NCBI RefSeq assembly: GCF_050320075.1
Contig: NZ_CP190018.1
DNA from: Escherichia coli
GTDB taxonomy: Bacteria > Pseudomonadota > Gammaproteobacteria > Enterobacterales > Enterobacteriaceae
Direction: 5' to 3' (one strand)
DNA: 64,000 bases
Made by a program: the position numbers and the translations under genes. Under the pieces are notes generated by a model. It saw nothing but the letters and a program-made list of their open reading frames with translations, was not told the DNA's origin and did not search any database. Positions 541-617 of the stretch are shown here, piece after piece; the stretch's first letter is position 1, and each line of letters starts with the position of its first letter.

Positions 541-617
541 TGTCGGATGCAGCGTAAACGCTTTATCCGACCTGGATTCGCGTAGGCCGGACAAGACGCG
601 CAGCGTCGCCTCCGGCA
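541..617. repeat. REP/BIME palindromic units in gabT-gabP intergenic region
   Basis: GTCGGATGCAGCGTAAACGCTTTATCCGACC and GTAGGCCGGACAAGACGCGCAGCGTCGCCTCCGGCAT match the REP/PU consensus as I recall it. Confidence 0.5.

What the first reader, a model, noticed from the sequence alone, without database searches (positions are those of the whole stretch)
541..617. REP/BIME elements downstream of gabT
Two palindromic units matching the REP consensus lie in the gabT-gabP intergenic region. This is ordinary for E. coli but relevant because REP units are IS1397 targets elsewhere in this window.
Basis: partly seen in the sequence, partly recalled or inferred. Interest (0 to 1): 0.15.

Follow-up and report, generated by a model that had tools for sequence, protein, structure and literature searches.

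The report
Ordinary REP/BIME repeat after gabT
The two small palindromes between the E. coli genes gabT and gabP are real copies of the common REP repeat, paired as one mosaic element; this is ordinary and also present in strain K-12.

Summary
Observation confirmed; the finding is ordinary. The window is E. coli, reversed relative to K-12: gabP starts at 391(-) and gabT is 629-1909(-).

In the 237-bp gabT-gabP spacer, 582-617 is a z2-type REP with an intact GTAG on the + strand. 541-575 is a y-type REP in the opposite orientation. A 6-nt linker separates them, so together they form one BIME-2-type pair.

A covariance model trained only on 23 K-12 REPs from other loci scores them 44.2 bits (E=2e-10) and 38.9 bits (E=7e-9), the two best hits in 64 kb. 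A rigid Stern-type consensus with at most 3 mismatches finds nothing, because both copies are diverged.

Its remark about IS1397 is correct: a 1432-bp IS1397 at 58350-59781 splits a z2 REP loop.

K-12 carries the same three units. In 1304 of 5426 complete E. coli genomes the whole cassette is replaced by an unrelated REP-free sequence. Other Escherichia species carry 2 to about 16 tandem BIME copies at this site.

The likely effect, inferred and not shown, is an mRNA 3'-exonuclease barrier and partial attenuator that favours gabDT over gabP. Not novel.

The parts
582..617 (+). z2-type REP (palindromic unit), GTAGGCCGGACAAGACGCGCAGCGTCGCCTCCGGCA. GTAG lies at 582-585 on the + strand. On the gab mRNA (- strand) it reads as an iREP ending in CUAC. 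Its first paired base (616) is 12 nt after the gabT stop codon.
   Evidence: The covariance model gives 44.2 bits, E=2e-10, over the full model length. The inverted repeat 586-599/603-616 was found. The RNA hairpin folds at -20.3 kcal/mol, z=-2.7. The AAGACGCG..CAGCGTCGC core matches K-12 z2 units.
576..581 (.). 6-nt linker (ATTCGC) joining the GTAG-side ends of the two inverted units.
   Evidence: Read directly from the sequence. The multi-copy arrays of other Escherichia species have 5-6-nt linkers at the same position.
541..575 (-). y-type REP, read on the - strand as CCAGGTCGGATAAAGCGTTTACGCTGCATCCGACA. The GTAG position is degenerate (CCAG). The T:A and A:T pairs replace the canonical C:G and G:C pairs, so the stem is preserved.
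   Evidence: It has 6/35 mismatches to the canonical REP and is the only such hit in the window. The covariance model gives 38.9 bits, E=7e-9. The RNA hairpin folds at -16.9 kcal/mol, z=-5.0, with 0/200 shuffles as stable. A G:C to A:T double change separates the K-12 and window alleles.
513..540 (.). 28-nt spacer between the y unit and the third unit. It is part of the variable cassette.
   Evidence: Alignments of the E. coli alleles and the outgroup sequences.
480..512 (-). Third, degenerate y-like REP (y'), GTCGGCCGGATAAGGCGGAGCCGCTCTCCGGTA. It has the same orientation as the y unit, GTCG in place of GTAG, and a shortened loop.
   Evidence: CTTATCCGGCCGAC differs by one base from the 14-nt REP tail. 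The window holds 4 matches with up to 2 mismatches, against 0.52 expected. The covariance model gives only 11.0 bits, E=0.61, and 12.4 bits in K-12. The unit is 86%/82% similar to the neighbouring units. In Escherichia sp. MOD1-EC7003 it occupies the y position of the last BIME. Its hairpin folds at -14.6 kcal/mol, z=-1.35, which is not significant alone.
466..628 (-). The whole variable cassette (z2, y, spacer, y' and an A-rich tail). The alternative E. coli allele replaces it with about 236 nt of unrelated, REP-free sequence.
   Evidence: Alignment A1 shows that homology stops right after the gabT stop codon and resumes at CAATTA..ACGCGTGACCCG. 4077 genomes carry an allele of this length and 1304 carry the alternative. 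The alternative allele has no REP hits.
629..1909 (-). gabT (4-aminobutyrate aminotransferase), the upstream gene whose 3' end the BIME follows. Its stop codon TAG is at 631-629.
   Evidence: The ORF is listed. RefSeq annotation of identical DNA names it.
392..465 (-). Conserved gabP leader, which is not REP. It holds a hairpin at 429-450 and a CUCUC...GAGAG hairpin overlapping the gabP Shine-Dalgarno sequence. The gabP ATG is at 391-389.
   Evidence: The leader is nearly invariant in both allele types and in other Escherichia species.

Best explanation
The feature is one BIME-2-type mosaic element. It consists of a z2 REP (582-617) and a y REP (541-575) in inverted orientation, joined by a 6-nt linker. 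A degenerate orphan y-like REP (480-512) follows it. All three sit in the transcribed spacer of the csiD-lhgO-gabDTP operon, between gabT and gabP. It belongs to the dispersed E. coli REP family, whose copies are thought to be spread by the REP-associated tyrosine transposase (RAYT/TnpA_REP).

How it most likely works (inferred, not shown here):
- On the polycistronic mRNA, the two stable hairpins just after the gabT stop codon block 3'-to-5' exonucleases. They may also partly attenuate read-through, possibly with Rho. The gabD-gabT segments would then accumulate relative to gabP.
- gabP has no detectable sigma-70-like promoter of its own in the spacer, so it must be expressed by read-through across the element.
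- The first hairpin begins 12 nt after the stop codon. It therefore also meets the published distance criterion (fewer than 16 nt) for REP-mediated ribosome stalling, which would down-regulate the upstream gene.
For: Identity:
- Covariance model hits of E=2e-10 and E=7e-9, the top two in the window.
- The only match in the window to the published canonical REP.
- Sub-threshold hits to Rfam naRNA4, the only REP-derived Rfam family.
- The stem pairing is maintained: 92% of cells are paired across 24 distinct copies at this locus, against 19-43% when partners are slid. A G:C to A:T double change occurs between E. coli alleles.
- The same units are present in K-12.

BIME-2 character:
- z2 plus y composition, inverted orientation and a short linker.
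- The homologous spacers of E. albertii, Escherichia sp. E1V33 and Escherichia sp. MOD1-EC7003 hold 2, 3 and 15.7 tandem copies. This matches the published description of BIME-2 as z2+y in variable tandem copy number.

Mechanism:
- The hairpins are stable as RNA: -37.2 kcal/mol for the pair, with 0/200 shuffles as stable.
- There is no intrinsic terminator on the mRNA strand and no sigma-70-like promoter in the spacer.
- gabDTP is described as part of one operon.
- REP325 was shown to be both an upstream-mRNA stabiliser and a partial Rho-dependent terminator, and REP-containing tandem gene pairs show a raised upstream/downstream expression ratio genome-wide.
- REPs protect Rho-terminated transcripts from exonucleases.
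Against: No expression data for this locus were found. gabT and gabP are absent from the held supplements of a 3'-end mapping study and from the REP papers.

The cited work stresses that REP effects depend on context, and that 2-4-hairpin fragments were not sufficient for Rho-dependent termination.

The cassette is dispensable. 24% of complete E. coli genomes carry a REP-free allele, which argues against a strongly selected function.

Both units are diverged. The y unit has lost GTAG, and the z2 unit has an enlarged internal loop (a C-C mismatch). REPs with lower sequence conservation showed weaker expression bias.
Confidence: 0.85

Rival explanations
1. The element is a neutral relic of a selfish repeat. 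It was deposited and amplified or contracted by RAYT-type single-strand processing or replication slippage, and has no selected role at this locus. Any effect on gab expression is incidental. This is compatible with the REP identity and concerns only function.
For: - A replacement polymorphism exists within E. coli: 4077 genomes with the BIME allele against 1304 with a REP-free allele.
- Copy number across Escherichia ranges from 1 to 15.7.
- In one E. coli-group genome the y unit is largely deleted (L018).
- GTAG is lost in two of the three units. GTAG is required for TnpA_REP binding and cleavage in vitro.
Against: Stem pairing is kept through double substitutions. The single-copy arrangement is identical in E. 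whittamii and in at least 4077 E. coli genomes. Genome-wide data link REPs in tandem gene pairs to an expression bias.
Confidence: 0.35
2. The main effect is translational. The z2 hairpin 12 nt after the gabT stop codon stalls terminating ribosomes, triggers mRNA cleavage and tmRNA tagging, and so lowers GabT output.
For: 12 nt separate the stop codon (629-631) from the first paired base (616). [quoted passage not shown]
Against: This was not tested for gabT. The z2 lower stem has only 6 bp below an enlarged internal loop. The rule rests on a few tested genes, as far as the papers read here show.
Confidence: 0.25
3. The element acts at the DNA level, for example as a BIME-2 gyrase or DNA polymerase I binding site that relieves supercoiling behind a highly induced operon.
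For: REPs are reported binding sites for gyrase, Pol I and IHF (background statement quoted).
Against: Nothing in the sequence can test this. No IHF consensus lies in the spacer. A single BIME copy is a weak candidate for such a site, and recent work found no chromosome-organising role for REP325.
Confidence: 0.08
4. The palindromes are not REPs. They are a locus-specific regulatory hairpin or an intrinsic terminator, or they arose by chance.
For: The rigid consensus search finds nothing. The RefSeq records list no repeat feature here.
Against: The covariance model gives E-values of 1e-9 to 1e-10. No shuffle matched the canonical REP. No T-run follows either hairpin on the mRNA strand. The same units are tandemly amplified as canonical GTAG-bearing y/z2 BIMEs in sister species.
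Confidence: 0.01

Closest known systems
E. coli BIME-2 (z2 + y palindromic units; Gilson/Bachellier nomenclature as summarised by Ton-Hoang et al. 2012, PMC3333891)
   Same: It has one z2 and one y unit, each 35-36 nt, in inverted orientation with a short linker. It is extragenic, at the 3' end of a gene and inside an operon. Tandem copy number at the same locus varies between strains and species.
   Different: There is a single copy here instead of a tandem array. The y unit has CCAG instead of GTAG. The z2 unit uses y-like stem bases (CCGG rather than CCTG), has a C-C mismatch that enlarges the internal loop, and has a loop 1 nt shorter. An extra orphan y-like unit follows in direct orientation, not alternating.
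REP325 / naRNA4 (yjdM-yjdN BIME array; Rfam RF02564)
   Same: Both have the same y/z2 building blocks and lie between two co-oriented genes of one operon. REP325 is the experimentally supported model for the dual role of stabiliser and partial terminator.
   Different: REP325 has 6 BIMEs with near-consensus units. The units here score only 25-37.5 bits against a gathering score of 59.5. Partial Rho dependence of REP325 needed the full array.
REPIN (inverted REP doublet mobilised by RAYT, described in Pseudomonas; PMC3116915)
   Same: It has two inverted REPs close together. The predicted minimum-energy fold of the whole spacer pairs z2 with y' into one long hairpin that encloses y.
   Different: No RAYT gene lies in the window. 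Only one unit keeps GTAG. The long-range pairing is only a prediction, and local hairpins are the alternative fold.
IS1397 target REP at 58331-58349 / 59782-59803 in the same window
   Same: It is a z2-type unit of the same family. Reconstructed, it reads TGCCGGATGCGACGCTGGCGCGTCTTATCCAGCTTAC.
   Different: That unit is split in its loop by the IS. The gabT-gabP units are intact, and the z2 loop there is 1 nt shorter.

Membership tests
REP / palindromic unit (E. coli y, z1, z2) | An imperfect palindrome of 30-40 nt able to form a stem-loop | tested here: met
   One search finds arms that are 86% and 79% complementary. One search gives hairpins of -16.9 and -20.3 kcal/mol (z=-5.0 and -2.7). The third unit folds at -14.6 kcal/mol, z=-1.35, which is weak.
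REP / palindromic unit (E. coli y, z1, z2) | Sequence similarity to the family consensus | tested here: met
   A covariance model trained on 23 K-12 REPs from other loci gives 44.2 and 38.9 bits, E=2e-10 and 7e-9. The y unit has 6/35 mismatches to the published canonical REP, with no shuffle as good. The rigid Stern-type pattern with up to 3 mismatches gives 0 hits. The third unit scores only 11 bits, E=0.61, which is inconclusive alone.
REP / palindromic unit (E. coli y, z1, z2) | Conserved GTAG tetranucleotide 5' of the palindrome foot | tested here: inconclusive
   GTAG is present in the z2 unit (582-585, + strand). It is replaced by CCAG in the y unit and by GTCG in the third unit. One of three units meets the feature.
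REP / palindromic unit (E. coli y, z1, z2) | A two-base mismatch or bulge inside the stem (required for TnpA_REP binding) | tested here: met
   Searches show the internal loop AA/GC between the lower and upper stems in the y unit. In the z2 unit the loop is enlarged by a C-C mismatch.
REP / palindromic unit (E. coli y, z1, z2) | Extragenic position, dispersed in many copies in the genome | tested here: met
   The units lie in the spacer 392-628 between gabT and gabP. In 145 kb of K-12, 33 distinct units were found. A query holding this BIME finds a median of 5 places per E. coli genome. Copy number in this strain's own genome cannot be tested from one window.
BIME-2 | z2 and y units in alternating (inverted) orientation separated by short linkers | tested here: met
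   The z2 unit is on the + strand and the y unit on the - strand, with a 6-nt linker. Subtype assignment comes from alignment with K-12 y and z2 units.
BIME-2 | Occurs as tandem copies whose number varies between strains | tested here: inconclusive
   The window, K-12 and E. whittamii have a single copy (TRF finds no array). At the homologous site there are 2 copies in E. albertii, 3 in Escherichia sp. E1V33, at least 4 in L017 and 15.7 in Escherichia sp. MOD1-EC7003.
BIME-1 (RIB/RIP) | z1 + y separated by a long L linker carrying an IHF site | tested here: not met
   The linker is 6 nt. No WATCAANNNNTTR match lies in 392-628. The partner unit is z2-type, not z1.
Intrinsic (Rho-independent) terminator | A G+C-rich hairpin followed by a U-run on the transcribed strand | tested here: not met
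   One search finds no terminator-like site on the - (mRNA) strand in 300-760. The alternative allele does have one.
naRNA4 (Rfam RF02564) | A score at or above the family gathering threshold (59.5 bits) | tested here: not met
   The best hit scores 37.5 bits, E=1.4e-4.
RAYT/TnpA_REP substrate (REPtron-associated BIME) | A REP with GTAG plus a partner iREP on the same strand, and a RAYT gene in the genome | not testable with these tools
   The + strand has a GTAG-bearing z2 REP next to a y iREP whose CTAC is mutated to CTGG. The - strand REP lacks GTAG. rayT is far from this region in K-12 and was not looked for in the window. Cleavage is a biochemical question.

The most novel reading that the evidence does not exclude
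The gabT-gabP spacer may be a natural expression dial. Within Escherichia it exists as a REP-free allele with a terminator-like hairpin, as a single diverged BIME (this window), and as arrays of 2 to about 16 BIMEs. These states might set different gabDT:gabP ratios, and hence different GABA or 5-aminovalerate uptake relative to catabolism. If so, the locus would be a ready-made allelic series for testing how REP copy number tunes operon polarity.
Probability: 0.25. Interest if true: 0.35.

Novelty: already known. Interest (0 to 1): 0.08.

Why it matters
For annotation it matters little. This is one of several hundred REP/BIME elements of E. coli, and K-12 carries the same one.

It is useful in three modest ways:
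- It explains the 237-bp gap inside the gabDTP operon.
- It gives an intact reference for the REP family that IS1397 has targeted 58 kb further along in the same window.
- It marks a locus where natural alleles (REP-free, one BIME, many BIMEs) could be used to measure what REP copy number does to polarity within an operon.

Tried and rejected
1. The rigid Stern-type consensus pattern with up to 3 mismatches gave 0 hits in the whole window. I rejected it as a test because it fixes the loop length and cannot accommodate diverged copies. I replaced it with a mismatch scan with shuffles and a covariance model.
2. I looked for REP annotation in RefSeq K-12. The copy available lists no repeat features at all in 45 kb, so it is uninformative.
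3. BIME-1/IHF: there is no IHF consensus in the spacer.
4. Intrinsic terminator or internal promoter: none on the mRNA strand.
5. Rfam gave only sub-threshold naRNA4 hits.
6. Literature on this specific element:
   - No paper combines gabT with REP in E. coli.
   - Schneider 2002 is not held.
   - gabT and gabP are absent from the held supplements of the 3'-end mapping paper and the REP papers.
7. I tried to count E. coli genomes with two or more BIME copies, using the E. albertii two-copy spacer as query. Piece-joining made the coverage figure uninformative. All listed top hits span only about 219 bp, which is one copy.
8. Covariation within E. coli alleles was too small for statistics, with only one double change. 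The family-level count mostly reflects y versus z2 differences and was made on a model-fitted alignment.

Full report
**Context**

The window is Escherichia coli DNA, reversed relative to K-12.
- ORF 629-1909(-) is gabT and 1923-3371(-) is gabD.
- The 5' end of gabP runs from 391 to 1 on the - strand and matches the AA_permease family.
- A 461-bp query across the spacer is 100% identical to several RefSeq E. coli chromosomes annotated gabT/gabP, and matches 5396 of 5426 complete genomes.
- The spacer is 392-628, which is 237 bp, the same length as in K-12 MG1655.

**Checking the observation**

I ran three formal tests.

1. A rigid Stern-type consensus with a fixed 4-nt loop and up to 3 mismatches found nothing anywhere in the 64 kb.
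2. I scanned with the published canonical E. coli REP, TGCCGGATGCGGCGTAAACGCCTTATCCGGCCTAC (supplement of PMC1525189).
   - 541-575 is the only ungapped match in the window, with 6/35 mismatches.
   - No match with up to 10 mismatches appeared in 30 dinucleotide-preserving shuffles.
   - Four of the six mismatches form two double changes (C:G to T:A and G:C to A:T) that keep the stem paired.
3. I collected 33 distinct REP units from 145 kb of K-12, excluding the gab locus. I aligned 23 of them (12 y, 10 z2, 1 z1) and built a covariance model with the 7+4-bp stem.
   - With filters off, the two best hits in the window are 582-617(+) at 44.2 bits, E=2e-10, and 541-573(-) at 38.9 bits, E=7e-9.

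Rfam's only REP-derived family, naRNA4, also hits these units, but below its gathering score.

**Anatomy**

- **z2 unit.** 582-617 reads GTAGGCCGGACAAGACGCGCAGCGTCGCCTCCGGCA. The GACGCG..CAGCGTCGC core makes it z2-type, and GTAG is intact.
- **y unit.** 541-575, read on the - strand, is CCAGGTCGGATAAAGCGTTTACGCTGCATCCGACA. It is y-type, with CCAG in place of GTAG.
- **Arrangement.** The two are inverted and their GTAG-side ends are joined by a 6-nt linker (576-581). This is the composition that Ton-Hoang et al. describe for BIME-2: z2 plus y, with short linkers and variable tandem copy number.
- **Not BIME-1.** No IHF consensus lies in the spacer and the partner unit is not z1.
- **Third unit.**
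  - Its tail, CTTATCCGGCCGAC, is one mismatch from the REP tail.
  - It is 82-86% similar to its neighbours.
  - It scores only 11 bits, E=0.61.
  - Its REP origin is supported by context. In Escherichia sp. MOD1-EC7003 it sits in the y slot of the last BIME.
- **On the gab mRNA (- strand).** The order is: gabT stop, 12 nt, z2 hairpin (-20.3 kcal/mol), y hairpin (-16.9 kcal/mol), 28 nt, y' hairpin, then a conserved 74-nt gabP leader.

**Comparative evidence**

K-12 has the same three units, at 45.6, 44.2 and 12.4 bits. Nine E. coli alleles differ at only a few positions. One difference is a G:C to A:T double change in the y upper stem, between the K-12 type and the window type.

In 1304 of 5426 complete genomes, the whole cassette (window 466-628) is replaced by about 236 nt of unrelated sequence.
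- That sequence has no REP hit.
- It contains a different dispersed repeat, at a median of 3 places per genome.
- It has a terminator-like hairpin on the mRNA strand.

One exact-pattern scan of species-representative genomes returned eight loci, with these arrangements in the gabT-gabP spacer:

| Locus | Organism | Arrangement |
|---|---|---|
| L021 | E. whittamii | z2, y, y' (as in this window) |
| L015 | E. albertii | 2 BIMEs + y' |
| L020 | Escherichia sp. E1V33 | 3 BIMEs + y' |
| L017 | MAG contig labelled Pseudocitrobacter sp. | at least 4 BIMEs |
| L022 | Escherichia sp. MOD1-EC7003 | 15.7 copies of a 95-bp BIME (1229-2718) directly after gabT |
| L018 | E. coli SCPM-O-B-8794 | z2, mostly deleted y, y' |
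| L019, L016 | E. coli E69; Pseudocitrobacter faecalis DSM 27453 | alternative REP-free allele |

Internal y copies in the arrays carry canonical GTAG. Only the last y, the one retained in E. coli, has CCAG. Across 24 distinct copies from this locus, 92% of stem cells are standard pairs, against 19-43% when partners are slid. That alignment was fitted to the model, so it leans toward the structure.

**Mechanism**

What is shown:
- The element is a REP/BIME.
- It lies in the transcribed spacer of an operon described as csiD-lhgO-gabDTP.
- It folds into stable RNA hairpins.
- Neither hairpin is followed by a U-run on the mRNA strand, and the spacer has no sigma-70-like promoter.

What is inferred from work on other REPs:
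- REP hairpins block 3'-exonucleases and define the stable 3' ends of Rho-terminated transcripts.
- REP325 both stabilises the upstream gene's mRNA and partly terminates transcription into the downstream gene. REP-containing tandem gene pairs show a raised upstream/downstream expression ratio.
- REPs fewer than 16 nt from a stop codon can down-regulate translation of the upstream gene. The z2 stem here starts 12 nt after the gabT stop codon.

I therefore take the most likely effect to be differential expression that favours gabDT over gabP. I put roughly even odds on any measurable effect. The units are diverged, the cited effects depend on context, and a quarter of E. coli genomes lack the element.

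The GTAG pattern allows one further inference. TnpA_REP needs GTAG and the stem mismatch to bind. Only the + strand offers a competent REP here. That may be why E. coli keeps a frozen single copy while sister species with GTAG-bearing y copies have expanded arrays. This is speculation.

**The IS1397 remark**

- 58350-59781 is a 1432-bp IS3-family element with HTH and rve domains.
- It is 100% identical to copies annotated "IS3-like element IS1397 family transposase".
- It is the only copy in the window.
- It sits between the end of an rRNA operon and the next gene.
- It is inserted in the loop of a z2 REP with a TGGC duplication. The restored target reads TGCCGGATGCGACGCTGGCGCGTCTTATCCAGCTTAC.

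**Verdict**

This is a real, statistically solid and entirely ordinary REP/BIME element that K-12 shares. It is not novel. The only mildly interesting aspects are comparative: the replacement polymorphism within E. coli and the 1-to-16-copy series across Escherichia.

Noticed in passing
It has GTCG instead of GTAG and a shortened loop, and scores 11 bits, E=0.61. It is part of the cassette that the alternative allele replaces.
   Followed up: yes
window 58350-59781 (flanks 58331-58349 and 59782-59803): A 1432-bp IS1397 (IS3 family) is inserted in the loop of a z2 REP, with a 4-bp TGGC target duplication. It lies between the 3' end of an rRNA operon and the downstream gene, and it is the only copy in the window.
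   Followed up: yes
L002 462-702; L003; L019; L016 (homologous to window 466-628): 1304 of 5426 complete E. coli genomes carry an alternative gabT-gabP spacer with no REP. It contains a G-rich dispersed repeat (CCCCTCGCCCCTCTGGGGAGAGGGTTAGGGTGAGGGG..., median 3 places per genome; from memory it resembles BoxC, which I did not verify). It also has a terminator-like hairpin, GGGAGAAAACCCTCCC followed by a T-rich tail, on the mRNA strand.
   Followed up: partly
L022 1229-2718 (Escherichia sp. MOD1-EC7003); L020; L015; L017: The same spacer holds 15.7 tandem copies of a 95-bp z2+y BIME (about 31 REPs, 1.5 kb) in one Escherichia species. Others hold 2, 3 or at least 4 copies. This is larger than the 6-BIME REP325 array seen in the K-12 sample. 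It comes from a short-read assembly, so the exact copy number is uncertain.
   Followed up: partly
L016 (Pseudocitrobacter faecalis DSM 27453) 6238-12093: A genome of another genus carries a glaH-gabT-gabP region 93-95% identical to this E. coli window, as close as other Escherichia species. It includes the alternative spacer allele. This suggests horizontal exchange of the gab region or a taxonomic or assembly issue.
   Followed up: partly
window 392-465 (- strand): The gabP leader is nearly invariant across both spacer alleles and across Escherichia species. It has a hairpin at 429-450 (CCCGACGCGGGAAAUGUCGGG). A second predicted hairpin pairs CUCUC with the GAGAG of the gabP Shine-Dalgarno sequence, which may be a translational control element.
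   Followed up: no
window 480-617 (- strand): In the minimum-energy fold of the whole spacer, the z2 unit pairs with the third unit (inverted repeat 496-512/582-598, 82% complementary). This forms one long REPIN-like hairpin enclosing the y hairpin, as an alternative to three local hairpins.
   Followed up: partly
L003 1-2134 (E. coli O111:H11 88-19539): In this strain the sequence downstream of the gabT spacer, where gabP should be, is occupied by genes annotated as Mu-type transposase and HTH proteins. gabP appears to be disrupted or replaced by a transposable prophage.
   Followed up: no
window 59371-59385 (- strand): A 15-nt REP-foot-like sequence, GTAGGCCTGCAGGCA (17.9 bits, E=0.007), lies inside the IS1397 transposase ORF. 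It is probably chance.
   Followed up: no
L018 about 5677-5790 (E. coli SCPM-O-B-8794): This allele has the y unit almost entirely deleted (CCTACGAGGATGCATCCAACAATC), leaving z2 plus the third unit. It is another structural variant of the cassette.
   Followed up: no
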